Source: Nanobdellota archaeon
Lineage (GTDB): Archaea > Nanobdellota > Nanobdellia > Woesearchaeales > SM23-78
Reading direction: 5' to 3'
NCBI GenBank assembly: GCA_018819305.1
Contig: JAHJQO010000014.1
Location: 34,832-98,831 of the forward strand
DNA: 64,000 nt
In this document: in pieces, positions 13,238 to 54,709 of the stretch
Position numbering within the stretch: the stretch's first letter is position 1
Layout: each line of letters begins with the position of its first letter
Notes under the pieces: model-generated
The model's database searches: none
Told to the model about the DNA's origin: nothing
What the model saw: only the letters and a program-made list of their open reading frames with translations
Made by a program: the position numbers and the translations under genes

Positions 13238-13280
13238 AAAAACCACCTCTGCTTTTGTTGATTTTATGCTTTGATTGATT

Positions 13281-19927: not shown

Positions 19928-20002
19928 TCTGCTTACCTCACATCTTTTTTTATCTCAATCTCTTCTTTTTCAGTTTATCTTAAAGTTAAATCATCTTAAA
20001 AG

Positions 20003-20650: not shown

Positions 20651-20718
20651 ACTTGACCACCTCTTTTTTCAGTTTTGATTTGAATTAATTTGAAAATTTA
20701 AATTTTGAAAACAAAAAA

Positions 20719-21102: not shown

Positions 21103-21143
21103 ACTCTTTTACCTCATCTCAATTTTTTCAATTTTTTAATAAA

Positions 21144-22463: not shown

Positions 22464-22511
22464 ATTTAATTGTCACCTTTTTTATTGTCTTGTTTATTAT
22501 TTATTATCATA

Positions 22512-29100: not shown

Positions 29101-29673
29101 ACTGATTGCTTTTTTGAGCTTTTTGTCAGATATAATTATTACTTTTTTAAAATCATCAGTGTAAAGAGAAACAGCATAAATTTGCTTGTGAGTGATGTCG
29201 GTTTCTATGTCTATGGATAAAACTTTTAGGTTTTTAGGTGTATAATCTGCTGGCTTGAGCTCAGGATCTAAATAAACCCTGTCAATTTCTTCTCCTTTTG
29301 CATAATTACCCTCAATTTCAAGGCTTCCCTGAAACCTGTGGTCATACATAAACCTGTATTCAAAGCGAATGTCTGCTTCATAACAGGAAATATTTTGTTC
29401 CAAGAGTTTGTTTCTCAATGGTTTTATTTGTGGAGGAACATGCATTATTATTTTTACAACAGGCTCTTCATCAAAAGTCTTGTATTTGGTTTCCTTGTAA
29501 TCAAACTTTTCAATTTCCAGGGCTGTGTTTAAATCTGATTGTTTTATAAAAAAATAAGGCCTGAACTCATTGATTGTTAAGAAAGATTCTCCATTCTGCA
29601 ATCTGCCAAATAGATATACATAAGCTTTACCATCCTTTATCTTATAAGTAGGATGAACAATAAACCCCTTCAT
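26194..29673 (-). CDS. polB: Family B DNA polymerase (archaeal PolB) interrupted by one intein.
   Basis: Exo I LSIDIETD, motif A DFKSLYPSII, motif B KILMNSFYGVLG, motif C split as VIYGD | intein | TDSIFV. Extein total ~772 aa. Confidence 0.9.
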   Translation of the reverse strand: MKGFIVHPTYKIKDGKAYVYLFGRLQNGESFLTINEFRPYFFIKQSDLNTALEIEKFDYKETKYKTFDEEPVVKIIMHVPPQIKPLRNKLLEQNISCYEADIRFEYRFMYDHRFQGSLEIEGNYAKGEEIDRVYLDPELKPADYTPKNLKVLSIDIETDITHKQIYAVSLYTDDFKKVIIISDKKLKKAISVADEKELIFKFQELLLKVNPDIITGWNLIDFDLKFLENKFSKYNIPFLLGRGNMKCSLRIFNSFFQDSRADFPGRMILDGIQVLKNNFIGLPNYKLETAAQHFLGTSKIFTGKNRFEQIENAYKKDQQLLVDYNLLDSKLAYDILYKSTALSLSIQRSLLTGMPLDRVRASIASLDSLYLKELRKKDYVAGTSTYNPDEAPGLGGFVMEPKPGIYDYVIVCDFKSLYPSIIRTFNIDPLSFVADCKGKNLVKAPNGACFKNQDGLLPIIIQRLWSQREKARKEKNEFARFAIKILMNSFYGVLGNNNCRFHNRDISNAITYFGQHFIKMTAQKVKDMGYEVIYGDSVAADSEVIVQDANGNVLYKNISDIFFKVDKRSSDGKSYSLNIPYSVLTIDSSGKSVFKPISYVMRHKVNKKMHRVYLTNSWFVDVTEDHSLIGYINKSKKAKLSDMDRLVEVKPNELGKNVKSVVSIKSVPHQKITTKGFSKEFYEFMGLFIGDGSFDSMKKKNYYLHLAAGLDQNEIIRKVIVPLKSQGWIRNYWKKPKGDICINGTKIVYFFNENLLRDKHKCIPEFIFNESNENIASFLRGLFSADGTVMIRNGSPIVRFTNTNKEFINQIQKLLQLISIPCSFFSETNKNKYCSVKSDTISLHIVVRDILSYNKFVGFVLNRKNKRLKKIPVNSKQKRTIRKYDFDISSVKRVEEILYKDYVYDLEVKDNHRFFANGVLVHNTDSIFVNLNVNNYADAQKIGNKIARIMNKFFEEHTQKDYKRKNYLELEFEKVYKRFLMPMARHSEKGSKKRYAGFIEDEKGKTKMDFVGLEFVRKDWTDIAKQFQQELLDRIFKKQEVAEYVKNIVEEIKNGKHDKSLIYRKSIRKGVAEYTKTTPPHVKAARLLGKELDGTLIEYVMTTAGPEPIQKQKHKIDYEHYIEKQIKPLADSVLGFYGQSFDDILAGSSQQTLFGFGKK
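26905..28065 (-). mobile_element. Intein (387 aa) with a LAGLIDADG homing endonuclease domain, inserted in polymerase motif C (YGD|TDS, the pol-c site).
   Basis: The intein starts with Ser (S537) right after YGD and ends ...VLVHN, followed by +1 Thr (TDS). The two dodecapeptides are EFMGLFIGDGSF and ASFLRGLFSADGTV. Confidence 0.8.
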
Positions 29674-29779: not shown

Positions 29780-30409
29780 TTATTTCTTGTTTTCAAACTG
29801 CTGTTTCATAGCCTCTCTAAACATTCTTCCCATTGCACCACTCATCATTGCTCCTTTAGTCAGATTATGCATCTCAATTACAAGCTTAGGATTTTTCTTT
29901 TTTTTGCCTATTTCAGATACATAATCACAAATATTGCTAATTGTTCTTTTAGCCTCAACCTCTTTTTCATTAAAGGTATATAACTCAAGGTCTTTAAGAT
30001 AACCAAAGAACTCTTTTTTTTCATTATCATTTAGATTTGCTTTGTGTCTTATTATTTTACCAACTGTCTGGCCTGCTTTTATACCTACATAAGTAGCTAT
30101 TCCTGTTTCAGCAGCAAGAGTTAAGTAAGATAAGGAATTCAGATCTTGATTTGTGTTGACAACACTCACCAAAAAAGCGTTTCCCATTGAAACTGCAGCT
30201 TCTAATTTAGAACGAGCAGAATTTAATTTATCATATTTTTTAATATCATTCTTATCACATTCTTCTGTCTTGTCGCAGTCTTCACATCCTTTATTTGCAT
30301 ATTCTGCTAAATCATGACTAAAACCAATTTTTCTGTCAGTATAAAATCCAAAAGCAAAACCACTGGCAAAACCATAAGCAGCGCCTCCAATTATTCTTTC
30401 AAGAGTCAT
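29780..30409 (-). CDS. Hypothetical protein, last gene of the E1/JAMM/AAA operon.
   Basis: Gly-rich hydrophobic N-terminus (GGAAYGFASGFAFGF) and Cys cluster CEDCDKTEEC. The start overlaps the upstream gene stop. Confidence 0.35.
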   Translation of the reverse strand: MTLERIIGGAAYGFASGFAFGFYTDRKIGFSHDLAEYANKGCEDCDKTEECDKNDIKKYDKLNSARSKLEAAVSMGNAFLVSVVNTNQDLNSLSYLTLAAETGIATYVGIKAGQTVGKIIRHKANLNDNEKKEFFGYLKDLELYTFNEKEVEAKRTISNICDYVSEIGKKKKNPKLVIEMHNLTKGAMMSGAMGRMFREAMKQQFENKK

Positions 30410-32031
30410 TTTTTAACCTCCATAAAAACCTTGTCAAGCTTTTCTGAAATCATGTTCAAAATAGGCGTTCTTGCTAAGTATTCTCCTACTTTTCCTTTGC
30501 TTTCAAAAGATTCTTTTATCTGCTCAAATGAATTGTTTCCTACTTTTTTCTTGGGATTTATTAATTCTACATGATTCCTCTGAATATCAAAAATATAAGG
30601 AGTTCCATGACGATCTCCTGTAAAATGATGAAACTCAATATCTATCTTTCCACCTCCATCTCTTTTAACATAACCCCAGCTACCATTTTTAGTATGAGTA
30701 TAATTATCTCCGCTCTTTACAATCTTAACTTTAACACCTGCTCTAAATACATCTTCTTGCTTTGCCTCTTCTAACAAGAACTGTGTGCAAAGATTCTCAT
30801 AACCATTATGATTCAACTTTTTAGGGAAAGTTTGATTATCCTTATTTATTGCAATTTCTAAATCACTAATTTTAAGACATTTAGTATCACCTTTAAAATT
30901 AATTTCCCATGTGGCTCCTGAATTGCATGTGCAAGAGTCAGTTTTTCCAATAATTCCTTTATACTCATCATAGTACTCACTGCCTTTTTTTACTCTTACT
31001 TTCAGGTTTTCCTTATGATCCTTTATTTTTGCTGGTTTAAAATAATAACCTGCTTCAAATTTAAACTCTGTTTGGTTAAGCTTCAATTCTGCTTGATTAG
31101 AATACTCTGATATCACTGCCTTAAATAGAGCTGCAAAATCTGGTTCTGCCCTATCATGCGCTCTCTTATGTTTATTTAATTCGTTATAAACATCATTCTT
31201 TGCAAATATACTGCGAACTATTTTTGGGTCATCAACAAGTTCAGATAAACATGCTGCCTGTTCATAAACATTCATATCATGACCAAACAGCTCAATCATG
31301 GCATTTTCAACTAATCCTTTGTTAACCTTTTCTTCATTTTTTATTGATTCCAATAATTTAAAATAGTTAGAGCATTCCCCTGCAAAGAACAGTTCAACTC
31401 CTTTGTACAGCATTTCATTGCTTGTTAATAATTTATCCTGTGATAACTCTAATAATCTATTTTTCACATCATCATTTCGTGCAGATGAAACGAGTTGAGA
31501 ATAGACTATTGTATTTGACAAATCATCAGGAGTATCCAACTTATCTACTTGTGAAGCAAGGAATGGTATTTTTTCTAAGAGATTCTGCGCAGCCATAGAT
31601 GAAATTACATTAGTACCTATGTACTGTAATACATGGGGCTCTATTTTTGCCTTTTTCACCTTATCTTTTTTTATATTTTTTGTATAATCCTTTAGGAGGT
31701 GAAGAGGTGATGTTTCTGGAGCTAATCTTGAAATTAAAGAATCATGGTTAGGTGTATATTTTAATCTTATGAAGTCTGAAAAAGCTTTTTCAGGATCCTT
31801 GGCAATCATTTGCTTTGCTTTTTTCTTATCAATGTCATTTGCAAAATAATATGCTAAACTTGTATCTGGGAGATTTGTTCCTGTTAACTCATCAAAACCG
31901 AATCTGGGTTGCTGTGCCTCCAGAATCTTTGATATTTTTCTAACTGGATTCATATCTGCTGCTAAAACAACTATTTCTTCAAGGGCTTCTTCTTCATTTA
32001 ACTCTTCTAACAAATCAATTTCATCATTCAT
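30406..32031 (-). CDS. Hypothetical 541-aa protein with an acidic N-terminus and C-terminal small beta-rich repeats (possible SH3/KOW-like) plus a CxC..C..C motif.
   Basis: Operon position. The repeated V(R/K)VK..KSG.. blocks and SCTCNSG...KCLK...LCTQ were seen directly in the sequence. Confidence 0.4.
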   Translation of the reverse strand: MNDEIDLLEELNEEEALEEIVVLAADMNPVRKISKILEAQQPRFGFDELTGTNLPDTSLAYYFANDIDKKKAKQMIAKDPEKAFSDFIRLKYTPNHDSLISRLAPETSPLHLLKDYTKNIKKDKVKKAKIEPHVLQYIGTNVISSMAAQNLLEKIPFLASQVDKLDTPDDLSNTIVYSQLVSSARNDDVKNRLLELSQDKLLTSNEMLYKGVELFFAGECSNYFKLLESIKNEEKVNKGLVENAMIELFGHDMNVYEQAACLSELVDDPKIVRSIFAKNDVYNELNKHKRAHDRAEPDFAALFKAVISEYSNQAELKLNQTEFKFEAGYYFKPAKIKDHKENLKVRVKKGSEYYDEYKGIIGKTDSCTCNSGATWEINFKGDTKCLKISDLEIAINKDNQTFPKKLNHNGYENLCTQFLLEEAKQEDVFRAGVKVKIVKSGDNYTHTKNGSWGYVKRDGGGKIDIEFHHFTGDRHGTPYIFDIQRNHVELINPKKKVGNNSFEQIKESFESKGKVGEYLARTPILNMISEKLDKVFMEVKK

Positions 32032-32043: not shown

Positions 32044-33558
32044 TTACATCCTCTTTCCATCCAAATAAACTTCTTTTATTATTTGGCCATCTACTTCTAT
32101 TTCCTTGATTTGAACTCTTTTTTTGTCAGGAAGCTCTAATGACTTTGCTTTTTTTGTATGACAATCACAAATAGATTCTAATTCACTCACTCCTCCTCTG
32201 GATTCAAAGTCAGAGATGTACTTGATTTCGCCATTTACAGGGCTGCCATAAATATCTGGTCTTAGCGCACACATGGCTTCCCCTATCATCAAAGCAGTGG
32301 CTATCTGGTTGATCATAATAACAGAAGGGTTGGGTGCTTGTATACAGCTAGTTCTCCTGATAATCTCAGCTCTGATAGCAAGGTCTGAAAGATTAATCTG
32401 GCAGTCAAAACATGAAGTTTCTCCTTGCTTATAAGCTAGAACTGTTGCTGCCCTATAATCTGTGCCTCCACTAATAATAGGGATGTTGTGTTTTTTTGCA
32501 TAATTATGAAGAATAGCCTTTGTGTAAAAACTATCCACTCCGTCAAAGATTAAATCATATTTTGTATCGAATTTGGATTTTTCTGTGAACTTATCAACAA
32601 TTGCATTTATCTGTGTTTTTCCTTTTGAAATCTTTTGCATAGTCTCTGCTATTCTTTCTGCCTTTAACTTGCCGACTGCATCATAAAAACTTACCTGCCT
32701 GTTGAGATTATGGTCTTCAACAACATCATAATCCATAACGTCAATTCTTCTCGGGCTTAAATTAGATATTGCTGCTGGTCCTAACAAGCAGCCCAGTGCG
32801 CCAGCTCCAACCATGAGAATATTCTTATCTTTGAAAGCATTAGCTATTACTTTTATCTCCTTGTCTGAAATATGACCAAAACGTTTATTTGATTCTAAAT
32901 TATAATTATAAATTATGTTTAAAGGCTCATCTTTTCTCATTAACAACTTCTTGACTTCCTCAGCCACCATTCCGCCTAGTTCTAAAGATACAAAATCACC
33001 TTGCTTTTTTCCTTCAAACATAGGCATTAACATAGCCAGGTTGTTTTCTCCGGCACCTGAAAAAGCAACTTTTCCATTATACTTATCAGCAGAAGAGCTA
33101 ATTATTGGAACGCCTTTTTTAAGATGATAATCTAAAACATGACTCTTTGATATCTTATCATTGGTTGCATCAACTATAACATGGCTTCCTTCTAAAAAAT
33201 ACTGAGCAGCAATAGTTGATAAATCAGAGTTTATTCCAATAACATTTACCTCTGGATTAATCTTCTTTAATGCTTGCTCAAGGCTTTGAGCTCTGGATTT
33301 TCCTTTTAGAGGCAAGTCAAGAAGCATATCATTTGCTGTTCCTTTGGCAGAATCAATTATTCTTATAGTGCCTACTCCTAAAGCTGCTAATGGCATGGCA
33401 ATGTACCTGGCAAGAACATCAGAGCCAATTATAGTAACAATTCCATTCTTCAGTTTCTCCTGATTCCAGTCCTTAATTAAGAGTTGCCTGTCATACCTGT
33501 GAATATTTTTTTCAATTTTTTCTTCAATATCTTCTAAAATGTCTTTTTTATATTTCAT
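32044..33558 (-). CDS. E1-like enzyme with tandem ThiF/MoeB-type Rossmann domains (a degenerate N-terminal domain plus a catalytic C-terminal adenylation domain) and C-terminal Cys motifs.
   Basis: Domain 1 (IIGSDVLARYIAMPLAALGVGTIRIIDSAKGTAND) lacks GxGxxG and the NLNRQ motif. Domain 2 has MVGAGALGC...VMDYDVVEDHNLNRQ. CxxC (SCFDC) and ICDC follow. Confidence 0.65.
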   Translation of the reverse strand: MKYKKDILEDIEEKIEKNIHRYDRQLLIKDWNQEKLKNGIVTIIGSDVLARYIAMPLAALGVGTIRIIDSAKGTANDMLLDLPLKGKSRAQSLEQALKKINPEVNVIGINSDLSTIAAQYFLEGSHVIVDATNDKISKSHVLDYHLKKGVPIISSSADKYNGKVAFSGAGENNLAMLMPMFEGKKQGDFVSLELGGMVAEEVKKLLMRKDEPLNIIYNYNLESNKRFGHISDKEIKVIANAFKDKNILMVGAGALGCLLGPAAISNLSPRRIDVMDYDVVEDHNLNRQVSFYDAVGKLKAERIAETMQKISKGKTQINAIVDKFTEKSKFDTKYDLIFDGVDSFYTKAILHNYAKKHNIPIISGGTDYRAATVLAYKQGETSCFDCQINLSDLAIRAEIIRRTSCIQAPNPSVIMINQIATALMIGEAMCALRPDIYGSPVNGEIKYISDFESRGGVSELESICDCHTKKAKSLELPDKKRVQIKEIEVDGQIIKEVYLDGKRM

Positions 33559-34916
33559 TTTTCTTTTTTCTCAACTTTTTCTTCAGGTCTATTTTCTTCT
33601 TTTTCTTTTATCTCTTTTTTCTCTCTTTCTTGTGCTTCTTTAGTCTTTAAGCCGTATTTACTCTGGAAATATGAATCCATAATCTGCATCTGCTCATCTC
33701 TTCTATATGATTCATCTAATTTAACCATCATCTTAACAAATGATTTTATTTCACCAATACTTGGATCATCTGTTCTTTTCTCATATTCATTTACTTTCCC
33801 CTCAAGAGTTTTTAGAAATGGCCTAGACAAGTAGAATGCGTTTTGATAAGTACCACCATAATGATTGTCATACTGAGCATAATATCCTTGAGCATCCCAT
33901 TTCTGTGCATTTGCACCAACAGAAACATACTTTCCTTTTTTGCCTTTAGCTCCTTTCCAGTTGACAAAAACCCATTTCTTAGGAAGATCAATATTAGCTT
34001 TGATTTCCTCTTCTAAAGACTGTCTTGTGACTTCTATGTCATTCTTAACAAAAACCTTTGAAATCTCTACTTTGTCAATTAATTCAGAGGAATTTCCTTT
34101 AGTAATAGCTTTTTCAGTGGAAAGTCCAATAGCGGTATAAGGCTTAATATTAGGTATGTTGCTCATAATAGCATAATAAGCAAAACCAAAAATATGAGAT
34201 TGATAATAATTTATTTGAGTTGTATCAAGTAATGAATTTAACAGATGAACAGCTTTGTCCTTTGCATTTTCCTTTTGAAAATCAACACCATTTCTTTTTA
34301 AAATTCTTTCCAAGCGCTTATCATGGTTCAGAACATACTCAATTATTGCATCATCTACAGATCTACCAGAAAACCTTATTCTTCCGTTTTCTCTGTTCTT
34401 TGTAATCTGAGTTTCAATAAGTTTTAATGGAATATTAATGTGTTGTTCTGTGTTAAGGCTGACAGAATTCAGCACAGTTTCAAAGTTTTCCATATCCACA
34501 CTTGAAGGTCCTAAGTGGCGTGCATCTCCATGGCCATGAGGCCAACCAATAATATATAAATTGCTTCCATTTGCATTGTTTTTTTCCTCTAACTGATTAT
34601 TTGCTTTAGCCACATCATCTCCGCTAATCTTAACAGTTCCAAGAGTGATATCCTGGCCTTTCTGTATCAAAAGATCACGTATAACATAATTAGGGTCTCC
34701 TTGTTGTGTTAGAAAATATGCTGACCATTCATAGTCTCTGCCAGTAAGCTCTTTTATAAGAGGACCTATCATCTCTAATTTCTTATGCGCCCCTAATGTG
34801 ATTGGCATTTTTTTAGGAATTAAATCTTTTGGAGATACTATCCTTTTTTCATGATTGTTCTCTGCTTGCACAAGCAGTTCATCAAGTTCATCAAATTGTT
34901 GTTCATTATTTTTCAT
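33555..34916 (-). CDS. Protein with a central JAMM/MPN+-like metalloprotease motif (candidate deubiquitinase-like isopeptidase). K/E-rich C-terminal tail.
   Basis: YIIGWPHGHGDARHLGPSSVD matches GWYHSHP.......SSVD (HxHx7-8Sx2D), with Glu residues upstream (LEEK). Confidence 0.45.
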   Translation of the reverse strand: MKNNEQQFDELDELLVQAENNHEKRIVSPKDLIPKKMPITLGAHKKLEMIGPLIKELTGRDYEWSAYFLTQQGDPNYVIRDLLIQKGQDITLGTVKISGDDVAKANNQLEEKNNANGSNLYIIGWPHGHGDARHLGPSSVDMENFETVLNSVSLNTEQHINIPLKLIETQITKNRENGRIRFSGRSVDDAIIEYVLNHDKRLERILKRNGVDFQKENAKDKAVHLLNSLLDTTQINYYQSHIFGFAYYAIMSNIPNIKPYTAIGLSTEKAITKGNSSELIDKVEISKVFVKNDIEVTRQSLEEEIKANIDLPKKWVFVNWKGAKGKKGKYVSVGANAQKWDAQGYYAQYDNHYGGTYQNAFYLSRPFLKTLEGKVNEYEKRTDDPSIGEIKSFVKMMVKLDESYRRDEQMQIMDSYFQSKYGLKTKEAQEREKKEIKEKEENRPEEKVEKKEK

Positions 34917-34917: not shown

Positions 34918-36267
34918 TTAACCTCTATTCCAATCCCATCTGTTTGTTATTAACAGACCTTTTTTCTTAGCCTTCTCAATAGTAGTCTTTCTTGGAGATA
35001 GCTTTTTATCTAATGAATCACCAAAATATTCACCACCATCTCTTTCATCACCACCATGCCCTCTTATGCTATGTGGTGTTAAACCGTGCATAATTAAGTT
35101 TTTAGCATCATCAAGCGCCTTTGCAACCCATTCAACATTACTGCCATTTCTTGAGGGAACATTCCCCCCGCAAAGACCTTGAAAAGCTTGATTCTTATTC
35201 GATGTAAATGGATGCCATTCAGGTTCAAAGAGTTCAGGTTTATCCAAATAAATATCTCCGTCATATTGGATTCTCAATCCCACTCTTAATCTTGGAAATT
35301 CATAACAAACACCTTTCTTAGTTGGTCTTGGATCTAGCATTGCAAAAGGAGGTATTATCTGGTAAACATAGACGCTTCCATCTTTTCTTAAGAAACCAAC
35401 ATCACCATCATTAAACTCCTTAAGCTTTATAATTCCATCAAAGTCCTTTAATGCCTTTAGTCTGGTCCTCTGCACATCCTTAATGTAATCAGAAAATTCG
35501 TCAATGGCTTCTATCTTTGCAGTCCATTCCAAGAAATCAGAGTAATTCTTTTCTATATTCTCAACTTTTGCAAGAGGTAATAATTCTGATTTTTCAGAAA
35601 CTCCATTAAGACAGATTTCTAACTGGGATTGATTACCATTTGAATTTGCTAGCTGATAAACTTTTTCACCAAGAGTCAATATATTTTTTCCCTGTATTAC
35701 ATCTAAGAAATGAGTGACTTCATCTTTTGCAGTTCCATTAAAATTCTTTTTTGCATAATCCTGCTGCTGTGCATACAGCTTTCTTTTAACCTCTTCAATA
35801 CTTCCAAGCAATTCTTTTTCATCGACTTCTTTAGAATCCTTTTTCCTTTGTTTATTTACTTCATCACCTAGTAAAGCAGATAAATCCTCTTTATGCCCGC
35901 TCATGTAGGGCATTAATTCTTTTATTATAAAAGAAAAAAGCTTTCTGTCTCCTATCTCTCTTTCTCTTTGCTCAGCAGTCTGAAATCCTTTGTCAACCTT
36001 ACTCTCAATAAAAGCTTTTTTTAGAGCAAATATCTCATCTTCATTTATATGATTGTAGAATCTGACTAAATCATCCAGATTACCAGCAGGAACCAAACCC
36101 AGTTTAACATTTGAGCCAGAAAACCCAATATAATTATCTCTGTGATTGCCCTTATTACCTTCTTTATAGTTTGGTTTATAGTTTGGGCTAACAAGATAAA
36201 CCTCTTTACCTCTAATAAGGAGAGGTCCTCTTGATGCGAGTTCTGAAAAAAAGGTTTGAAGTTTCAT
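34918..36267 (-). CDS. Hypothetical 449-aa protein. The C-terminal region has a pattern reminiscent of the UBC (E2) fold (tentative).
   Basis: YEFPRLRVGLRIQYDGDIYLDKPELFEPEWHPFTSNKNQAFQGLCGG....W resembles EFP..YP..PP.V.F....HPN.....G.IC...W. Confidence 0.35.
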   Translation of the reverse strand: MKLQTFFSELASRGPLLIRGKEVYLVSPNYKPNYKEGNKGNHRDNYIGFSGSNVKLGLVPAGNLDDLVRFYNHINEDEIFALKKAFIESKVDKGFQTAEQREREIGDRKLFSFIIKELMPYMSGHKEDLSALLGDEVNKQRKKDSKEVDEKELLGSIEEVKRKLYAQQQDYAKKNFNGTAKDEVTHFLDVIQGKNILTLGEKVYQLANSNGNQSQLEICLNGVSEKSELLPLAKVENIEKNYSDFLEWTAKIEAIDEFSDYIKDVQRTRLKALKDFDGIIKLKEFNDGDVGFLRKDGSVYVYQIIPPFAMLDPRPTKKGVCYEFPRLRVGLRIQYDGDIYLDKPELFEPEWHPFTSNKNQAFQGLCGGNVPSRNGSNVEWVAKALDDAKNLIMHGLTPHSIRGHGGDERDGGEYFGDSLDKKLSPRKTTIEKAKKKGLLITNRWDWNRG

Positions 36268-36331: not shown

Positions 36332-36760
36332 TTATCTTAACATATAATCAATACTTTTTTTTGCGCCTTCCTGTCTTGCAGCTACAATTATCTCTGCTTC
36401 AAGATACTCTCTTCCTGCTGTAGAAGTTGCGTCTCTAAGATAATCTGTAATTTTTTCTGTTCCTTTTATTGCCTGACCATTAACAGAAATACCATACTTA
36501 TCTTTCATCTCTATTCTAATTTTGTCTTGGTAACGAAGTTGCTCTCTTGTAAACCCGTCTTCTTCTCCTAATTCCAAAGCATGGCTAACAATCTTATCTA
36601 TCGACATGTCAGCCATGTGGTCAGGTAACAAAAACCTCAATGACTTCTCTGCCGCTGTCCCTGGCTTGACCCTTACAATTACTGGTTTATTTGCATCAGG
36701 TAAGTCTGCGCCTTTATCTCCTGTTGTTCTATTATCTTTTTTCTTTTTTTGTTCTAACAT
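36332..36760 (-). CDS. Small protein (142 aa) with a disordered basic N-terminus. Candidate modifier or adaptor of the operon. No C-terminal GG.
   Basis: Operon position between the AAA ATPase and the E2-like gene. PVIVRVKPG and ISVNGQAI segments are beta-grasp-like, but this is weak. Confidence 0.35.
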   Translation of the reverse strand: MLEQKKKKDNRTTGDKGADLPDANKPVIVRVKPGTAAEKSLRFLLPDHMADMSIDKIVSHALELGEEDGFTREQLRYQDKIRIEMKDKYGISVNGQAIKGTEKITDYLRDATSTAGREYLEAEIIVAARQEGAKKSIDYMLR

Positions 36761-36773: not shown

Positions 36774-38258
36774 TTAAATTATATTTCTAATATCTTTGAT
36801 TTGGTCATAGCGATCATTTGCTATTGAACGAATATCTGATTCAGTTAATGATCTCTTTACGTTTTGCCCCATTTCTTTGAATTCAGCATCTATTGCTCTT
36901 AGCAAATCTGATAACCCCAAACCTTTATCGTGTGAATTACCCTTGCCATTGCCAATTTCTCTTTTTATTGCATAATCAGCTGCTCTCTGGACACTGGCCT
37001 CAATAATTGCGCCACTAACAAGATTCTTATATCTTACTGGTTCTGATGTTTGATCATAGAATTCCATTAAAGCAAGTACGCTCTCATCTGAGAATAATTT
37101 TTTTACACCTTCAGATGATAAGTAGTCTACTTCTGGAAAACCAGCTTTTTTTGCTGCTTTTCTTAATTCCCTGTTAAAGGGCATGTCTTTTAGATAAATA
37201 TCATAAATCTGCTTAGCACCTTTATCATTAGGTCTTGGAATTTCCAGTTTTCTATCAATTCTTCCAGGCCTTAAAACTGCAGGGTCTATCATATCCTCCC
37301 TGTTGGTTGCCATGACAAGAACAACATTGTAATTTGAATCAAGACCATCCATCTCTGCCAGGAACTGAGGAACTATGGAATCATAGATATCTGTGGATAT
37401 ACCACTTCCTCTTCTTTTGAAAACTGATTCTGCCTCATCAATAAATATTACGACTGGCTCATTGGTTTCAGAACTCTTGTCTCTTGCACTTGCAAATATT
37501 TGCCTGATTGTTTCTTCTGATGCTCCGACATATTTGTTTAATATTTCTGGTCCTTTGATGTTCAGAAAGTAGCCGTTTTGATTATTGCCTGTTCTGGCTG
37601 CTATTGACTTTGCAAGATTATAAGCCATTGCTTTTGCCACAAGAGTCTTTCCACATCCTGGAGGACCGTAAAGCAACACTCCCTTTGGAACCCTCTTATT
37701 ATATTTCTTATAGAGATCCTTGTGCAAAAATGGTGTCTCAATAACATCTTTTATTGTCTCTATAATATGATCTAATCCACCTACTTTGCTCCATGGAATT
37801 TCAGGTACTCCTTCTAAAGTAAATCTCTTGTTTTGTTTTCCAAGGTTATCTAGAACTACAGATTCACTATCATCAATAACTACACAGTCTCCTCTTTTTG
37901 CACCATTATTTCCATAAAGGATGGTTTGATTACCGTTTATGTTTACTTTGACTCTATTATTATCTAGAACTTCGCTAACAACAACAACATTTCCTTCTTT
38001 TCTTGGATCAGATACATCTACAATAGCATAATTATTATTTAAAGAAACACTTTTCCCTCTTTGCAGTTTGTCCTTCATTCTAGGATTATACGATACCTCA
38101 TAAGTTTGATTTCCAACTATCACTTCAACTTTTTTATCAAATACCTCTGTAATAATTCCTTTTCTAAGCGGCGGAAGTGATAATGATTTGATAATCTCTT
38201 CTTGGTCTGCAATTTCTTCTTCAAGCTTTGAAACTCTTTCTCTTAGATCTTGAGTCAT
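36774..38258 (-). CDS. AAA+ ATPase of the ARC/Mpa/PAN type: N-terminal coiled coil, tandem OB-like domains and an AAA module (proteasome-associated-ATPase-like unfoldase).
   Basis: Coiled coil RERVSKLEEEIADQEEIIKSL. Two OB-like beta segments. GVLLYGPPGCGKTLVAKAMAYNLAKS, GYFLNIKGPEILNKYVGASE, VIFIDEAESVF and ATNREDMIDPAVLRPGRIDRKLEIPRP are strikingly Mpa/ARC-like. Confidence 0.8.
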   Translation of the reverse strand: MTQDLRERVSKLEEEIADQEEIIKSLSLPPLRKGIITEVFDKKVEVIVGNQTYEVSYNPRMKDKLQRGKSVSLNNNYAIVDVSDPRKEGNVVVVSEVLDNNRVKVNINGNQTILYGNNGAKRGDCVVIDDSESVVLDNLGKQNKRFTLEGVPEIPWSKVGGLDHIIETIKDVIETPFLHKDLYKKYNKRVPKGVLLYGPPGCGKTLVAKAMAYNLAKSIAARTGNNQNGYFLNIKGPEILNKYVGASEETIRQIFASARDKSSETNEPVVIFIDEAESVFKRRGSGISTDIYDSIVPQFLAEMDGLDSNYNVVLVMATNREDMIDPAVLRPGRIDRKLEIPRPNDKGAKQIYDIYLKDMPFNRELRKAAKKAGFPEVDYLSSEGVKKLFSDESVLALMEFYDQTSEPVRYKNLVSGAIIEASVQRAADYAIKREIGNGKGNSHDKGLGLSDLLRAIDAEFKEMGQNVKRSLTESDIRSIANDRYDQIKDIRNII

Positions 38259-38860: not shown

Positions 38861-38956
38861 ATGACACGTATATGTATAGTTAAGAAGGAGAAATGCAGCC
38901 CTGTGAGCTGTGGAAATTTTCTTTGCATTAGAGTGTGCCCTCTGAATCGCAAGTAA
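38861..38956 (+). pseudogene. Orphan 31-codon fragment encoding an intact ABCE1 N-terminal 4Fe-4S motif (MTRICIVKKEKCSPVSCGNFLCIRVCPLNRK*).
   Basis: It matches the archaeal ABCE1 N-terminus (M.RIA.ID.DKC.P.KCG.FLCERVCPVNR). It is followed by a stop and sits in a different frame from the downstream genes. Confidence 0.6.
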
Positions 38957-39074
38957 TCGTATTGGTTGGGGAAAAATTTAAATAATGTGACCTTTTTCTG
39001 ATATCATCAAAGCTTTTTATTCCAAAAACTTCATCATTTTTTAGCAATTTAAACATTTTTTAAAGAGTGCAAAA

Positions 39075-40448
39075 ATGTTAAATTACAAAAATGACTCCTT
39101 ATTATTGAACAAAGAAACTGCTAACGATTTAATTAGAAATAAGAATACTGACTTCATTTTTATCGATAAAGAAAAGAAAATATTGAATTTATTCTCGGCT
39201 TTTGTAAAAAAAGATGACTTCATTAAGAAAGATGAACTATGTCAACCGCTACAAAAAACCATTTATGTGAAAATAACTCAAAAACTCTTAAATAAAATTA
39301 AAAACAGATTCAAAGATAAAAAAGAAATTATAATAATTCTAGAAAAATATACTGATCGAAGAATTGTCACAAAAGAAGGGGTTAATAGATGGTTTAACAC
39401 CAGAATAATTCCTTTTATTCTTTTAAGAATATTAAGCAAAGATAATGAAGAATTTGCAGAATTCATAAAAGAAATTGATTACATTACTGATTTCTTAAAT
39501 AAAAGCAAATTTTACTGTCCGAAAACATTAGATGAATTATTAACACCAAAAATATTTTATCTCTGTGGATGCTCAGTTGGAGACGGTCATATAGATAAAA
39601 CAGGCAAAAGATGGGTTTTGGTGGATGGAAGCTCTAACAAAGAAAGATTACTTCAATCTCACAAATTCGTAGTTAACTTATCAAATTTACTTGAAAATTT
39701 AGGGATGAAATCAAGTATAAAATTAAAGAAAACAAAATGTATTTTAACAGCAAATAACAAACCTTTTTGTAGGTTTCTAAACTTCTTCTTTGGCTTGCCT
39801 TATGGAAAGAAAAAAGAAGTTGTATTAAGAAAACCAATTATACTAAATCAGAGTAAGAAAGATTTAGAAAAATACTTCTGGAGAGGATGTTTTGACACAG
39901 ACGGGAGTGTGAATAAAGATGGTACAATAGATTTATGTTCTTCAGATAATAATCTACTAACTGAATGTGAATCATATTTGGAAAACATAGGTATTAAAAC
40001 AAAAAAAAACAATATATTAATTACCATTAATATTCAAGAACTAAAGAAATTCACACAAATCGGTTTTGCTCATCAACGAAAACAAAAAGAATTCTTAAAA
40101 ATACTTAGACGAGGATTAAAACAGGAAAAAATGAATATAAGAGACAGTGAAAAGGTAGATACAAATTTATCAAGGATACATGATTTAATAAGAATCGATG
40201 GCAACTACAGAATAAGAATTCACAGAAGAAACCTTAAAAAGAGCGATATTGATGAAGAGGGAATAAGAAAAATCATTAAAGAAATGTTTGGATATGATCT
40301 AAAAGAAACAAGGAAATTACTTTATTTCAAATCCAAAAAAGTATATGAATACTTAAATAAGCGTCTTAAATCAGAGTCATATTGGAAACCTATAAATACT
40401 CAAGAAGAAGCCCAATTATTAGAAGAATGGAATGAGGTTTGGAATTAA
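39075..40448 (+). mobile_element. Free-standing LAGLIDADG homing endonuclease gene (457 aa). Its stop abuts the ABCE1 start (TAAATG).
   Basis: The two dodecapeptide motifs are IFYLCGCSVGDGHI and YFWRGCFDTDGSV, ~110 aa apart. No intein splicing blocks (no N-terminal C/S, no terminal HN). Confidence 0.7.
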
Positions 40449-42185
40449 ATGACAAGATTAGCTATTGTTGACAATAACAAACTAAAAGATATGGCTTTGA
40501 AAAAACACATACAAAGTTTATGTCCTGTTAATAGAACAGGAAGTGATTGCATGTATTTTGAGGGTTCAAAGCTTTTAATAGATGAAGCTTTATGCATTGG
40601 ATGCGGAATTTGCACTAAACCCGCTTTAGAAGCAATTCACATAGTTAATCTGCCAGAGGAATTAAAAAAAGAACCTGTGCATCGTTATGGAAAAAATGGT
40701 TTTGCTCTTTACAGCCTGCCAATCCCAATCAATGGAAAAGTTGTTGGTATTGTTGGAAAAAACGGCATTGGAAAAACCACTGCTCTTAAAATTCTTGCAG
40801 GTATTGAAAAGCCTAACTTTGGAATTCCAGGGGCAGAAGCAAGTTATGATGAGTTGATTGATTATTTTAAAGGTAGTGAGGCGCAGGGTTTTTTTGAAAA
40901 GCTCAAAAAAGGCGAAGTTGTTATTAGTTACAAGCCTCAGCAAGTTGATTTGATTCCTAAGCAATACAAAGGAACTGTCAAGGATTTGCTTGTCAAAGTT
41001 GACGAGAAAAAAGAACTTGACAAAATGGCTGAAGTGCTAGAGTTAAAAGAGATTCTTGACCATGATATTTCTAAGATTAGTGGCGGTGAACTTCAAAGAG
41101 TTGCTATTGCTGCCTGTGTTCTGAAAAAAGCAAATGTTTATTTTTTTGACGAACCAACCAGTTTTCTGGATGTCAAGCAAAGACTTAAGATAAGTCAGTT
41201 CATAAGAAACCTTGTTAATGAAGAAACTGGCGTAATTGTTGTTGAGCACGACCTGATAATTCTTGACTACATGGCTGACTTGATTCATTTGATGTATGGT
41301 AAACCAGGTGCTTTTGGAGTTGTAAGTCAGCCAAAGAGTGCAAAAGGTGGTATTAATGTTTATTTGTCTGGATTTTTAAAAGAAGAAAATGTGAGGTTCA
41401 GGGATGAAACAATAAAATTTGAAGCCAGACCTCCTATTGACATGAAACGAATGCATTTATTAACAGAGTGGGAAGGTTTCAAGCAAAAACTTGAAAGCTT
41501 TGAATTAGTAGCAGAAAAAGGAAATATCTATAAGCAGGATATTGTTGGTGTTCTTGGAGAAAACGGCATTGGAAAAACAACTTTTGTAAGAGTTCTTGCA
41601 GGTGAAATCAAAGGTCATGAATTAGAAGGACTTGGAATAAGTTATAAGCCACAGTATCTTGATTCAAGTGATGAACTTGTTATGAGTTTTATTCCGCTTG
41701 CAGTTCACAAATATGATGCTCAGCTTGTAAAGCCACTGGGCTTAAAGAATTTATTAATGAGAAAATTAAATGAGCTAAGTGGTGGAGAGTTGCAAAGAGT
41801 GTGGATTGCAAAATGTTTGAGTGAAGATTCTGATTTGATTCTTATGGACGAACCATCTGCTTATCTTGATGTAGAACAAAGGCTAAGCTTAGGAAAGATT
41901 ATACGAGATATGCTAAAGATTACAGGCAGAAGTGCACTTATAGTTGATCATGACTTATTGTTTATTGACACAATTTCTGACAGGCTCACTGTTTTTGAAG
42001 GAAAACCAGCAGTGCATGGCAAAGTAACAGGCCCATTCCCAATGGAAGAAGGCATGAATCACTTCCTTGACCACATCGACGTAACCTTCAGAAGAGATGA
42101 AGAAAGCAAAAGACCTCGCATCAACAAGCTAGGCAGCCAAAAAGACAAAGAACAGAAAAGAACAGGAAAATTGTATTATTCTTAA
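40449..42185 (+). CDS. abcE1: ABCE1 (RNase L inhibitor/Rli1, ribosome recycling ATPase) with twin ABC domains. Its N-terminal FeS domain is degenerate.
   Basis: Two Walker A motifs (GIVGKNGIGKTT, GVLGENGIGKTT), two signatures (ISGGELQRVAIA, LSGGELQRVWIA), and a C-terminal ...KLGSQKDKEQKRTGKLYY tail. The N-terminus retains CIGCGIC but lacks the CxxxxCxxxCxxxCP Cys residues. Confidence 0.9.
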   Translation: MTRLAIVDNNKLKDMALKKHIQSLCPVNRTGSDCMYFEGSKLLIDEALCIGCGICTKPALEAIHIVNLPEELKKEPVHRYGKNGFALYSLPIPINGKVVGIVGKNGIGKTTALKILAGIEKPNFGIPGAEASYDELIDYFKGSEAQGFFEKLKKGEVVISYKPQQVDLIPKQYKGTVKDLLVKVDEKKELDKMAEVLELKEILDHDISKISGGELQRVAIAACVLKKANVYFFDEPTSFLDVKQRLKISQFIRNLVNEETGVIVVEHDLIILDYMADLIHLMYGKPGAFGVVSQPKSAKGGINVYLSGFLKEENVRFRDETIKFEARPPIDMKRMHLLTEWEGFKQKLESFELVAEKGNIYKQDIVGVLGENGIGKTTFVRVLAGEIKGHELEGLGISYKPQYLDSSDELVMSFIPLAVHKYDAQLVKPLGLKNLLMRKLNELSGGELQRVWIAKCLSEDSDLILMDEPSAYLDVEQRLSLGKIIRDMLKITGRSALIVDHDLLFIDTISDRLTVFEGKPAVHGKVTGPFPMEEGMNHFLDHIDVTFRRDEESKRPRINKLGSQKDKEQKRTGKLYYS

Positions 42186-54606: not shown

Positions 54607-54709
54607 AGCGGGAGGGGAGACTCGAACTCCCGATCAGTGGGTTGCAGCCACTTGCCTTAGCCGCTTGGCCTTAGGAAAAAACCTCAAAAATGATAGTCTT
54701 TACTCCCGC
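54607..54709 (-). tRNA. tRNA-Cys (anticodon GCA) with a ~31-nt non-canonical intervening sequence between nt 9 and the D-stem (approx. 54670..54700). The mature length is ~72 nt; CCA is not encoded.
   Basis: Acceptor GCGGGAG/CTCCCGC (7 bp), U8A9, D-arm GCCA-AGCGGCTA-AGGC, anticodon arm AGTGG-CTGCAAC-CCACT (anticodon GCA), variable GATC, T-arm GGGAG-TTCGAGT-CTCCC, discriminator T. The 5' acceptor strand is separated from the D-arm by 31 nt. Confidence 0.6.

What the first reader, a model, noticed from the sequence alone, without database searches (positions are those of the whole stretch)
36774..38258. Mpa/ARC-type (actinobacterial proteasome-ATPase-like) AAA+ unfoldase in an archaeal context, without a Pup system.
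The Walker A neighbourhood and sensor regions match Mpa/ARC far better than archaeal PAN (GPPGCGKT rather than GPPGTGKT, and YFLNIKGPEILNKYVG). Tandem OB-like segments follow the coiled coil, as in Mpa.

The C-terminus ends ...IRNII. It has neither the PAN HbYX tail nor the Mpa GQYL tail. This suggests either a different 20S docking mode or a non-proteasomal partner.
Basis: partly seen in the sequence, partly recalled or inferred. Interest (0 to 1): 0.6.

Follow-up and report, generated by a model that had tools for sequence, protein, structure and literature searches.

The report
Mpa-type unfoldase heading a ubiquitin-like operon
A DPANN archaeon encodes a relative of the bacterial proteasome ATPase Mpa that lacks the proteasome-docking tail and is the first gene of an operon for a ubiquitin-like tag, its activating enzyme, a probable conjugating enzyme and a de-tagging protease. 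This suggests a previously undescribed link between ubiquitin-type tagging and protein unfolding in archaea.

Summary
ORF 36774-38258 (minus strand, 494 aa) is an intact AAA+ ATPase. It aligns end to end with actinobacterial Mpa/ARC, including both OB domains and the Mpa-specific insertion after Walker A. It lacks the GQYL and HbYX tails.

In a bootstrapped tree it groups with Mpa/ARC and excludes PAN and Cdc48 (100%). It sits in a tail-less, DPANN-type sister clade (63%).

"No Pup system" is true for this window but misses the main point. The ATPase is the first gene of a conserved operon:
- a ubiquitin-fold protein with a QEG(G/A)+propeptide C-terminus;
- an uncatalogued protein with an invariant HP...C signature (probable E2);
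- a JAB/JAMM protease;
- a tandem-ThiF E1 (inactive plus active halves).

In all 18 ATPase-plus-E1 loci examined the Ubl gene follows the ATPase directly. In other cassettes a ClpX-like unfoldase occupies that slot. One tail-less relative sits in a genuine Pup/Dop/PafA locus.

Best reading: a tag-dependent unfoldase for a Bil-like ubiquitin-type conjugation system. The E2 assignment, the tag-recognition step and any 20S partnership are inferred, not shown. I found no published description. Novelty: new variant of a known kind.

The parts
36774..38258 (-). Mpa/ARC-family AAA+ ATPase, 494 aa, first gene of the operon
   Evidence: ORF. TIGR03689 scores 418.7 bits over the full length. 39% identity end to end with an actinobacterial ARC. 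Groups with Mpa/ARC and excludes PAN and Cdc48 at 100% bootstrap.
38175..38246 (-). Short N-terminal coiled-coil segment (about residues 5-28)
   Evidence: Aligns to residues 56-80 of the ARC coiled coil. The heptad character was judged by eye and not computed.
37809..38159 (-). Tandem OB domains (OB1 about residues 34-89, OB2 about 92-150)
   Evidence: Pfam PF17758 at residues 34-89. OB2 is inferred from the contiguous alignment to ARC OB2 and to Mpa chain 5kwa.
37236..37679 (-). AAA module: Walker A 198-205, Mpa-type insertion 220-238, pore loop KYVG 242-245, Walker B 270-277, sensor-1 316-320, Arg fingers 330-336
   Evidence: Pfam AAA at residues 194-341. Motif positions. The insertion is absent from VAT in the alignment.
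36777..37163 (-). C-terminal domain (residues 366-494) ending ...IRNII, with no GQYL or HbYX tail
   Evidence: Aligns to ARC residues 428-553. The ARC protein has 18 further residues ending in GQYL. C-termini of 120 homologues were tabulated.
36332..36760 (-). Ubiquitin-like modifier precursor, 142 aa: disordered N-terminus (1-21), beta-grasp core (27-128), invariant QEGA (130-133), then a 9-residue tail
   Evidence: AF2 model, pLDDT 78.7 with the core above 85. Foldseek top hits are SUMO-2, Caldiarchaeum ubiquitin, BAG6 Ubl and ISG15 at probability 0.97-1.0. Alignments show the conserved Q(E/Q)G(G/A) followed by variable tails.
34918..36267 (-). Protein 'B', 449 aa: uncatalogued family, candidate E2-like conjugating enzyme (C-terminal domain residues 283-449; H352-P353...C366)
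   Evidence: No Pfam, NCBIfam or PADLOC hit. AF2 pLDDT 81. About 30 of the top 50 Foldseek hits are E2 enzymes, but none is significant. H352, P353 and C366 are nearly invariant in 142 divergent relatives. hhalign against E2s gives P=0.05 in the HPN...Cys register, against about 0.5 for controls.
33555..34916 (-). JAB/JAMM metalloprotease, 453 aa (E63; H127-x-H129; S138-x-x-D141), with a long C-terminal extension
   Evidence: The catalytic motif is invariant in the alignment of four orthologues. Orthologues match PF14464 Prok-JAB. The profile matches P. furiosus JAMM1 at 3e-5, then BRCC36 and the Caldiarchaeum Rpn11-like protein.
32044..33558 (-). E1-like activating enzyme, 504 aa: tandem ThiF, N-terminal inactive half plus C-terminal active half (GAGALG 251-256, NLNRQ 284-288, D339/D342, CxxC 383-386, C405, CxC 464-466)
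   Evidence: Pfam ThiF with two stretches. NCBIfam ThiF/MoeB/Ube1 hits. Alignment of 8 orthologues. The profile matches MoeB, ThiF, SAE2 and Uba1. Overlaps the JAB gene by 4 nt.
30406..32031 (-). Protein 'F', 541 aa: unknown accessory protein, shared only with the closest relative
   Evidence: 43% identity to the L004 counterpart and no counterpart in more distant loci. No family hits. Membership in the system is uncertain.
29780..30409 (-). Protein 'G', 209 aa: unknown, overlaps F by 4 nt
   Evidence: ORF with no family hits. It is not conserved in L004. Membership is doubtful.

Best explanation
The gene encodes a hexameric-ring AAA+ unfoldase of the Mpa/ARC family, from a tail-less clade that is sister to the bacterial proteasome ATPases and is seen in DPANN archaea. 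It is co-transcribed with a ubiquitin-type tagging system.

Proposed mechanism:
1. The JAB protease trims the propeptide from the Ubl after the conserved Gly of QEG(G/A).
2. The pseudo-dimeric E1 adenylates the exposed C-terminus.
3. The Ubl passes to Cys366 of the E2-like protein B and then onto target proteins.
4. The ATPase recognises the tagged proteins through its coiled-coil and double-OB N-terminal ring. It may engage the Ubl's disordered N-terminal tail, as Mpa engages Pup.
5. The ATPase threads the substrate through its pore, and the JAB enzyme recycles the tag, as Rpn11 does on the 26S lid.

What is shown: family membership of the ATPase, the Ubl fold, the catalytic motifs of JAB and E1, and the conserved gene linkage.

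What is inferred: the E2 activity of B, tag recognition by the ATPase, and the fate of the unfolded substrate (20S core, another protease, or release).
For: ATPase identity:
- Searches place it in the Mpa/ARC family.
- All ATPase motifs are intact.

Operon:
- Co-directional genes with 1-13 nt gaps or 4-nt overlaps.
- The ATPase-Ubl-...-JAB-...-E1 arrangement is conserved in 8 of 8 sampled named or long DPANN loci at only 41-59% ATPase identity.
- In 10 further metagenomic loci the Ubl again follows the ATPase directly.

Components:
- Ubl: ubiquitin fold and a near-universal ...Q(E/Q)GG plus 1-10 residue tail.
- JAB: complete JAMM motif.
- E1: active C-terminal half and degenerate N-terminal half.
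- B: present in most cassettes, with a family-wide HP...C signature and E2-enriched fold hits.

Functional coupling to unfolding:
- In 4 cassettes without the Mpa-like gene, a ClpX-like AAA+ gene occupies the same slot directly upstream of the Ubl.
- 14 of 19 informative cassettes therefore have an unfoldase in that slot.
- A related tail-less ATPase is wired to a different tagging system, Pup/Dop/PafA.

Precedent: in bacterial Type II Bil systems a JAB enzyme pre-processes the Ubl after a conserved Gly (PMC10557695).
Against: - There is no experimental or structural evidence that the ATPase binds the Ubl.
- The coiled coil that binds Pup in Mpa is much shorter here.
- The E2 assignment for B is statistically weak: Foldseek E of 0.38 or worse, hhalign P=0.05, and no Pfam hit in 97 members.
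- 5 of 19 informative cassettes have no adjacent unfoldase. The conjugation system can therefore exist without one nearby.
- Three ATPase-linked loci (L017, L018, L020) have no detectable B homologue.
- The whole tail-less clade lacks a 20S-docking motif, so a degradative outcome is not established.
Confidence: 0.6

Rival explanations
1. Antiviral defence reading. The cassette is an archaeal counterpart of bacterial Bil systems. The Ubl is conjugated to virus proteins, and the unfoldase extracts or unfolds the tagged viral components. It does not serve housekeeping proteostasis.
For: - The component set and gene order (Ubl, E2-like, JAB, E1) match BilABCD, including a pseudo-dimeric E1 and a Gly+propeptide Ubl.
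- The accessory gene content is variable: B has 0-3 paralogues, and the downstream unknown genes differ between loci. This is typical of conflict systems.
- A toxin-antitoxin pair is nearby in L020.
Against: - PADLOC gives only generic ThiF and AAA hits.
- No specific sequence kinship to Bil proteins was detected in the PDB searches.
- The neighbours are housekeeping genes: PolB and ABCE1 in the window, DnaK/GrpE in L008, SecDF in L010 and RNA polymerase in L020.
- The cassette is widespread across DPANN lineages and not sporadic.
Confidence: 0.2
2. The ATPase serves the conjugation machinery itself and does not process tagged substrates. It might unfold or recycle Ubl-enzyme adducts, or remodel the E1/E2 complex. 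It may equally be a general chaperone that is merely co-regulated with the cassette.
For: - Strict ATPase-Ubl adjacency, often with overlapping stop and start codons, suggests a direct Ubl-ATPase relationship. It does not say which one.
- Some cassettes work without any adjacent unfoldase.
Against: Replacement by ClpX-like unfoldases and the association of relatives with Pup both fit a tag-reader role known from Mpa. No precedent for the alternative role was found.
Confidence: 0.12
3. It is simply this archaeon's proteasome-activating nucleotidase, a divergent PAN equivalent that docks on the 20S core. The neighbouring genes are functionally unrelated.
For: - It has proteasomal-ATPase architecture (coiled coil, OB, AAA).
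- At least one host of the cassette encodes 20S alpha and beta subunits 4-7 kb away (L035).
Against: - PAN and Cdc48 are excluded with 100% bootstrap.
- PAN models score less than half of their cutoff.
- There is no HbYX or GQYL tail in any of the 58 clade members.
- Gene linkage to Ubl, JAB and E1 is conserved at 41-59% ATPase identity.
Confidence: 0.05
4. The E1 and beta-grasp pair is a sulfur-carrier system (ThiS/MoaD type) for cofactor or tRNA thiolation, and the ATPase is incidental.
For: The E1's best sequence matches include MoeB and ThiF.
Against: - The Ubl has a cleavable propeptide and a 25-residue disordered N-terminus.
- A JAB protease and the Cys-bearing protein B are conserved partners.
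- No thiamine, molybdopterin or tRNA-thiolation genes are adjacent.
- The structural matches are to ubiquitin and SUMO, not ThiS or MoaD.
Confidence: 0.03

Closest known systems
Mpa/ARC, the actinobacterial proteasome-associated AAA+ ATPase of the Pup-proteasome system
   Same: - Same overall architecture: coiled coil, two OB domains, one AAA module and a C-terminal domain.
- 39% identity over the whole length.
- Shared insertion after Walker A, and pore loop KYVG.
- Clusters with it at 100% bootstrap, excluding PAN and Cdc48.
   Different: - About 50 fewer N-terminal residues, so the coiled coil is short.
- No C-terminal tail with GQYL.
- Below the TIGR03689 cutoff (418.7 against 504.75 bits).
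- Lies in a sister clade, not nested among the bacterial sequences.
- Archaeal host.
- The partner tag is a beta-grasp Ubl made conjugatable by E1, an E2-like protein and JAB, in place of disordered Pup with PafA and Dop.
Type II BilABCD (bacterial ISG15-like) ubiquitination operons
   Same: - Four components in the same order: Ubl, E2, JAB-type DUB, E1.
- The E1 has an inactive and an active adenylation domain in one chain.
- The Ubl has a conserved Gly followed by a short non-conserved tail removed by the JAB enzyme. E. aridi BilA has Gly97-Ala98, compare QEG-A here (PMC10557695).
   Different: - No AAA+ unfoldase is described for Bil.
- No sequence match of B, the E1 or the JAB protein to Bil proteins in the PDB searches.
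- The E1 here has a short crossover loop with Cys405, where BilD has an 80-residue CYS domain.
- B is 420-570 aa with a large N-terminal region, and its signature is H-P...C. BilB's signature is Cys followed by His.
- Archaeal hosts.
Archaeal eukaryote-like ubiquitin operon of Caldiarchaeum subterraneum (Ub, E1, E2, RING E3, Rpn11)
   Same: - An archaeal operon with a ubiquitin-fold tag carrying a propeptide, an E1 and a JAB/Rpn11-type protease.
- Caldiarchaeum ubiquitin and its Rpn11-like protein are among the best structural and sequence matches.
   Different: - No RING E3 was detected here.
- The E2 candidate is not a recognisable UBC-family member.
- The operon includes a proteasomal-type ATPase, which the descriptions of the Caldiarchaeum operon that I read do not mention (PMC4571572; abstracts).
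PAN, the archaeal proteasome-activating nucleotidase
   Same: Coiled coil, OB domain and AAA layout, with 37% identity in the AAA module.
   Different: - PAN has a single OB domain and the HbYX tail (M. jannaschii PAN ends LYR).
- PAN lacks the Mpa-type insertion.
- PAN models score 216 bits against a 500-bit cutoff.
- The tree separates PAN from this protein at 100% bootstrap.

Membership tests
Mpa/ARC (TIGR03689 proteasome ATPase) | Full-length similarity reaching the curated family cutoff | tested here: not met
   418.7 bits against a 504.75-bit cutoff. The match is full length (residues 5-492 to model positions 20-510 of 512) and is by far the best model.
Mpa/ARC (TIGR03689 proteasome ATPase) | Tandem OB domains between the coiled coil and the AAA module | tested here: met
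   PF17758 at residues 34-89. Contiguous alignment through ARC OB1 and OB2 and Mpa chain 5kwa, residues 29-492.
Mpa/ARC (TIGR03689 proteasome ATPase) | Groups phylogenetically with Mpa/ARC and not with PAN or Cdc48 | tested here: met
   NJ tree of 122 sequences over 480 columns. The Mpa-like group excludes PAN and Cdc48 D1/D2 in 100 of 100 bootstraps. The tail-less clade is sister to the bacterial clade in 63 of 100. Limits: only one PAN and no AMA sequence, and NJ only.
Mpa/ARC (TIGR03689 proteasome ATPase) | C-terminal GQYL-type tail for docking on the 20S core | tested here: not met
   The protein ends ...DIRNII. All 50 long bacterial homologues end in G-x-(x)-YL, and none of the 58 tail-less clade members does.
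Mpa/ARC (TIGR03689 proteasome ATPase) | Long N-terminal coiled coil that binds Pup | tested here: inconclusive
   Only about residues 5-28 align to the C-terminal part of the ARC coil. Binding cannot be tested.
Mpa/ARC (TIGR03689 proteasome ATPase) | Genomic association with Pup, Dop/PafA and 20S genes | tested here: not met
   No Pup ligase or 20S gene in the 64 kb window. A related tail-less ATPase (P0005, 44% identity) does sit with Pup, Dop and PafA.
PAN (proteasome-activating nucleotidase) | Family model cutoff, HbYX tail and phylogenetic placement | tested here: not met
   216.4 and 195 bits against 500-bit cutoffs. No HbYX tail. Separated from PAN at 100% bootstrap.
Cdc48/VAT | Two tandem AAA domains plus the N domain | tested here: not met
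   The protein has a single AAA module. Cdc48/VAT hits align the one query domain to each of their two domains.
Ubiquitin-like modifiers (beta-grasp, conjugatable) | Beta-grasp fold | tested here: met
   All of the top 50 Foldseek hits are ubiquitin-fold domains. The best have probability 0.97-1.0 and target-normalised TM 0.53-0.61, from a model whose core pLDDT is above 85.
Ubiquitin-like modifiers (beta-grasp, conjugatable) | C-terminal Gly or Gly-Gly exposed by proteolytic processing | tested here: inconclusive
   Conserved Q(E/Q)GG (QEGA in this subclade) followed by a 1-15 residue variable tail, seen in more than 40 orthologues. Cleavage itself was not tested.
JAB/JAMM (MPN+) metalloproteases | E...HxH...S..D zinc-binding catalytic motif | tested here: met
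   E63, H127, H129, S138 and D141 are invariant. Orthologues match PF14464. The profile matches JAMM1 at 3e-5.
E1-like adenylating enzymes (ThiF/MoeB/Uba) | Nucleotide-binding GxGxxG, NLxRQ, the Mg-binding Asp motif and a catalytic Cys | tested here: met
   All are present and invariant in the C-terminal half. The N-terminal half lacks NLNRQ and the Asp motif. Pfam ThiF 7.6e-44.
E2 (UBC-fold) conjugating enzymes | UBC fold with an HPN-like loop followed by a catalytic Cys | tested here: inconclusive
   - H352, P353 and C366 are nearly invariant in 142 relatives.
- The predicted topology is a beta-meander, a loop carrying HPF and the Cys, then a long helix.
- About 30 of the top 50 Foldseek hits are E2s, but at E of 0.38 or worse.
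- hhalign gives P=0.05 in the correct register.
- No Pfam UQ_con or Prok-E2 hit.
BilABCD systems | Sequence membership of the E1, E2, DUB and Ubl in the Bil families | tested here: not met
   No Bil chain appears among the PDB profile hits for the E1, the JAB protein, B or the Ubl. PADLOC gives only generic E1-E2 (Cap2) hits to the ThiF domain. No Bil-specific HMMs were available.
BilABCD systems | Anti-phage activity | not testable with these tools
   Requires experiments.

The most novel reading that the evidence does not exclude
DPANN archaea carry a self-contained 'mini ubiquitin-unfoldase pathway'. A di-glycine Ubl is activated by a eukaryote-like pseudo-dimeric E1 and passed through a new E2-like family. 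It marks proteins for a dedicated Mpa-type ring unfoldase, with a JAB enzyme acting as its Rpn11-like partner. The unfoldase works without canonical 20S docking.

The tail-less clade is sister to all bacterial Mpa/ARC, and its members pair with either a Pup system or a ubiquitin-type system. It would therefore represent the ancestral 'tag-reading' proteasomal ATPase. It would be an evolutionary bridge between the Pup-Mpa and ubiquitin-26S logics, in which the unfoldase is constant and the tagging chemistry is swappable.
Probability: 0.3. Interest if true: 0.85.

Novelty: new variant of a known kind. Interest (0 to 1): 0.64.

Why it matters
Ubiquitin-type tagging and proteasomal-type unfolding are each known in prokaryotes. 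A conserved operon that physically links the two has not, as far as I could find, been described. Pup-Mpa uses an unrelated tag chemistry. The Caldiarchaeum, Asgard and Bil ubiquitin operons, as described in the papers I read, include no ATPase.

If the ATPase reads the Ubl tag, this would be a minimal, genetically compact model for how tag recognition, unfolding and de-tagging became coupled. That bears on a central question about the origin of the ubiquitin-proteasome system.

It would also:
- define a new E2-like family (209 clusters at 50% identity) with no database model;
- show that the Mpa/ARC family is not restricted to bacteria;
- offer small proteins from small genomes that should suit in vitro reconstitution.

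Tried and rejected
- **PAN hypothesis.** Rejected by HMM scores, the alignment and the tree.
- **Cdc48/VAT as closest relative.** Their high PDB rank is an artefact of summing two AAA domains.
- **GPPGCGKT as an Mpa-diagnostic motif.** Rejected, because two of the three archaeal Cdc48 proteins in the hit list have it too.
- **Bacterial promoter and terminator scan.** No excess over shuffles, and not appropriate for archaea.
- **Pup-like or AbrB-like small ORF upstream of the ATPase.** L010 and L006 have one, but the window does not.
- **Relating the 210-270 aa proteins of L017, L018 and L020 to B or to known E2 families.** No signal.
- **Identifying the organism behind the Pup-type locus L006/L007.** The sources give no names.
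- **Deciding whether the ClpX-type cassettes are archaeal or bacterial.** The flanking genes were not diagnostic.
- **Genome-contig scan with B.** It returned only 5 close loci because the search patterns were too specific.
- **Literature searches for a prior description.** Nothing found.
Full report
**1. The observation**

A G-rich, Shine-Dalgarno-like stretch (GGGGGGAG) lies just upstream of the start codon.

The protein has every motif of an active AAA+ ATPase:
- Walker A GPPGCGKT, residues 198-205
- pore loop KYVG, 242-245
- Walker B VIFIDEAE, 270-277
- sensor-1, 316-320
- Arg fingers RPGRIDR, 330-336

Pfam finds an AAA domain (2.5e-35) and the proteasomal-ATPase N-terminal OB domain at residues 34-89. 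The C-terminus is ...DIRNII.

**2. Which AAA+ family**

- The NCBIfam model for the actinobacterial proteasome ATPase (TIGR03689) matches end to end, residues 5-492 against model positions 20-510 of 512. It scores 418.7 bits, below its 504.75-bit cutoff.
- PAN models score 216 and 195 bits against cutoffs of 500. The Cdc48 model scores 254 bits summed over two domains.
- Against PDB sequences, VAT and Cdc48 rank first only because two domains of about 150 bits each are summed. The best single-stretch match is Mpa (5kwa, query residues 29-492, 283.6 bits).
- BLASTP against an actinobacterial ARC (P0097) gives 39% identity from residue 7 to the last residue. The alignment runs through both OB domains and the 12-residue insertion after Walker A, which VAT lacks.
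- The ARC protein has about 50 extra N-terminal residues and 18 extra C-terminal residues ending in GQYL. A verified M. jannaschii PAN sequence matches only the AAA module, 37% over 211 residues.
- I built a bootstrapped NJ tree of 122 sequences over 480 columns. All Mpa-like sequences separate from PAN and both Cdc48 domains in 100 of 100 replicates. The bacterial ...YL proteins are monophyletic (100). The 58 shorter, tail-less proteins form their sister clade (63).
- Limits of the tree: one PAN, no AMA, and NJ only.

GPPGCGKT on its own is not diagnostic, however, because two of the three archaeal Cdc48 proteins in the hit list share it.

**3. The host**

An identical protein is annotated in a Nanoarchaeota MAG (GCA_018820305.1). 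The nearest relatives, at 40-59% identity, are named Woesearchaeota, Pacearchaeota or Nanoarchaeia. The window also encodes an intein-containing family B DNA polymerase and an ABCE1-like protein. The archaeal context is therefore confirmed.

**4. The tail**

All 50 long bacterial homologues end in G(Q/G/H)xYL. None of the 58 tail-less clade members does, and none has a recognisable HbYX tail. The missing docking motif is thus a property of the whole clade and not an accident of this gene.

**5. The neighbourhood is the real finding**

The ATPase is the first of seven co-directional, tightly packed genes. The first five are conserved in other genomes:

- **Ubl (36332-36760, 142 aa).** It has no family hit. 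The AF2 model has a confident core (residues 27-128, pLDDT above 85), a disordered N-terminus (1-21) and a floppy tail. Every one of the top 50 Foldseek hits is a ubiquitin-fold domain, including SUMO-2, Caldiarchaeum ubiquitin, the BAG6 Ubl and ISG15; the best have probability 0.97-1.0. Q-E-G-A (130-133) is invariant in the close family and is followed by 2-15 variable residues. Across some 40 more distant orthologues the motif is ...Q(E/Q)GG plus a 1-10 residue tail. This is the layout of a ubiquitin-type precursor.
- **Protein B (34918-36267, 449 aa).** It has no hit in Pfam, NCBIfam or PADLOC. Its C-terminal domain (residues 283-449) defines a family of 209 clusters at 50% identity. None of 97 members scanned matches any Pfam model. 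H352, P353 and C366 are nearly invariant in that family.
- **Protein B, fold evidence.** The model (pLDDT 81) shows a beta-meander, a loop carrying HPF and the Cys, then a long helix. About 30 of the top 50 Foldseek PDB hits are E2 enzymes, but the best E-value is 0.38. hhalign against five canonical E2s aligns exactly HPF...C...helix to HPN...C...alpha2 at P=0.05, against about 0.5 for four controls. I call it a probable E2-like enzyme, not a proven one.
- **JAB (33555-34916, 453 aa).** It has the full JAMM motif (E63, H127, H129, S138, D141), invariant among orthologues. Some orthologues match PF14464. Its profile matches P. furiosus JAMM1, BRCC36 and the Caldiarchaeum Rpn11-like protein.
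- **E1 (32044-33558, 504 aa).** It has two ThiF halves. The C-terminal half keeps GAGALG, NLNRQ, the Asp motif, a CxxC...CxC zinc site and an invariant crossover-loop Cys405. The N-terminal half has lost NLNRQ and the Asp motif. This inactive-plus-active arrangement in one chain is described for eukaryotic E1s and BilD.
- **F (541 aa) and G (209 aa).** F is shared only with the closest relative, L004. G has no detectable counterpart there. Both are of unknown function.

**6. Conservation of the linkage**

I sampled eight DPANN loci through their ATPases: the window, L004, L008, L010, L017, L018, L019 and L020. ATPase identity among them is 41-59%. All eight have the ATPase directly followed by the Ubl, then JAB and E1. 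B is present in five of them.

I then probed metagenomes with the E1 alone and obtained 80 loci. The set Ubl-B-JAB-E1 recurs in these. Among the 19 loci with enough upstream sequence:
- 10 have the Mpa-like ATPase directly before the Ubl.
- 4 have a ClpX-like AAA+ gene in exactly that slot. It matches AAA_2 plus ClpB_D2-small, scores 295-307 bits on the ClpX model, and lacks the zinc-finger domain.
- 5 have no adjacent unfoldase.

Two unrelated unfoldase families occupying the same position is the strongest argument that unfolding is part of what the system does.

Conversely, one tail-less ATPase (P0005, 44% identity) lies in a genuine Pup locus. It sits with two Pup-ligase-family genes, and between them is an ORF ending ...EEIDRVV...QYKQQGGQ. 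This ATPase clade is therefore repeatedly wired to a protein-tagging system, but the tagging chemistry differs.

**7. Proteasome partner**

The window and the ATPase-centred loci contain no 20S, PAN or Pup-ligase genes.

One cassette-bearing archaeal contig (L035) encodes a 20S beta subunit and an alpha subunit 4-7 kb downstream. At least some hosts therefore have a core particle. Whether the tail-less ATPase docks on it is open.

**8. Mechanism proposed**

Shown: an intact Mpa-family unfoldase, a ubiquitin-fold protein with a conserved Gly and propeptide, a catalytically complete JAB protease, an E1 with one active half, and conserved operonic linkage.

Inferred, by analogy with Bil (where the JAB enzyme removes the residues after the conserved Gly; PMC10557695), with Mpa-Pup and with Rpn11 on the 26S lid:
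1. JAB matures the Ubl.
2. E1 adenylates it.
3. B carries it on Cys366.
4. Targets are tagged.
5. The ATPase engages tagged proteins and unfolds them, possibly through the Ubl's disordered N-terminal segment.
6. JAB recycles the tag.

The fate of the unfolded chain is unknown. It could be degradation by the 20S core through a non-canonical contact, another protease, or simple extraction.

**9. Comparison with known systems and novelty**

- The ATPase works like Mpa/ARC and is its closest relative. It fails three membership features: the curated cutoff, the docking tail and the Pup/20S context. I therefore file it as a distinct, archaeal-type sister group.
- The conjugation cassette works like Type II BilABCD and like the Caldiarchaeum ubiquitin operon. 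I could show no specific sequence kinship to Bil proteins. No RING E3 was found.
- No ATPase is mentioned for Bil. I found no paper describing this cassette.
- I rate it a new variant of a known kind. The ATPase alone would be only a new member of the Mpa/ARC kind.

**10. Verdict**

Its framing as an orphan Mpa without a tagging system is incomplete, because the gene belongs to a ubiquitin-type tagging operon.

Confidence by component:
- Family placement: about 0.95.
- Membership in a Ubl/E1/JAB operon: about 0.9.
- E2 assignment of B: about 0.65.
- Tag-dependent unfoldase mechanism as a whole: about 0.6.

Noticed in passing
window 38861-42185 (+): A 31-aa ORF (38861-38956) reads like the N-terminal Fe-S motif of ABCE1 (MTRICIVKKEKCSPVSCGNFLCIRVCPLNRK). 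It is followed by a free-standing LAGLIDADG endonuclease ORF (39075-40448). That ORF is in frame with, and directly abuts, the ABCE1-like ORF (40449-42185), whose own N-terminus lacks the first Cys cluster. This looks like a homing-endonuclease insertion or a decayed intein that splits or duplicates the 5' end of ABCE1.
   Followed up: no
window 26194-29673 (-): The family B DNA polymerase directly downstream of the operon carries an intein with a LAGLIDADG domain (Pfam).
   Followed up: no
L006 7169-13105 (and L007): A tail-less Mpa-like ATPase (44% identity to the window protein) sits in a genuine Pup locus: a Dop/PafA-like gene, a Pup ORF ending ...QYKQQGGQ (10285-10530), a second Pup-ligase gene and an unknown 399-aa protein. 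No 20S genes are adjacent. The organism is unidentified (low-GC groundwater metagenome). If it is archaeal, it would be a Pup system outside bacteria.
   Followed up: partly
L050 5362-6510, L062 2866-3993, L068 5015-6163, L069 5142-6302: ClpX-like AAA+ genes of about 380 aa, without the zinc-finger domain, sit directly upstream of the Ubl and overlap or abut it. These Ubl-B-JAB-E1 cassettes lack the Mpa-like ATPase. L050 and L068 also share an upstream DUF6909 protein. The domain of life of these contigs is undetermined.
   Followed up: partly
C-termini of P0004-P0059; e.g. L010 8538-10064: Many tail-less ATPases end in a loosely conserved ...TK(L/S)xxGGK(T)K or ...REVK(Q) tail. This is reminiscent of the GG-containing C-termini of the Ubl and of Pup. 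The window protein's subclade lacks it. The tail could be a docking or mimicry element for the JAB enzyme or the E1.
   Followed up: no
L010 8390-8536; L006 7053-7160 (or 7014-7160); L004 7311-7475 (-): Small ORFs of 35-54 aa lie next to the ATPase start. Two of them share the ending ELNIK..G.A., and the L004 ORF looks AbrB/SpoVT-like. Larger AbrB/MazE-like proteins (one with a PhoU domain) and Ser/Thr protein kinases recur next to the cassette in L017, L018, L019 and L058. These may be regulators. The window has no counterpart.
   Followed up: partly
L035 9498-10142 (-) and 11055-11786 (+): 20S proteasome beta and alpha subunit genes lie 4-7 kb downstream of an Mpa-like ATPase cassette. Three ORFs of about 235 aa follow the alpha gene. 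They may be exosome subunit genes, as in the usual archaeal gene order, but were not checked.
   Followed up: partly
L008 12130-19645: There are three paralogues of protein B in one operon (35-53% identical to each other). One has Asp in place of the conserved His of the HP...C signature. This suggests diversification of the putative E2 or substrate-selection component.
   Followed up: partly
window 18149-19927 (-) and 11840-23753: A glycogen-metabolism cluster includes a eukaryotic-type glycogen synthase (PF05693, 3.9e-148), a GH57 enzyme, an amylo-alpha-1,6-glucosidase and a GT4 glycosyltransferase. A glutamine synthetase lies next to it.
   Followed up: no
window 54615-54670 (-): Rfam reports a partial tRNA match (34.4 bits, model positions 9-63) that ARAGORN does not call. 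It may be an intron-containing or split archaeal tRNA.
   Followed up: no
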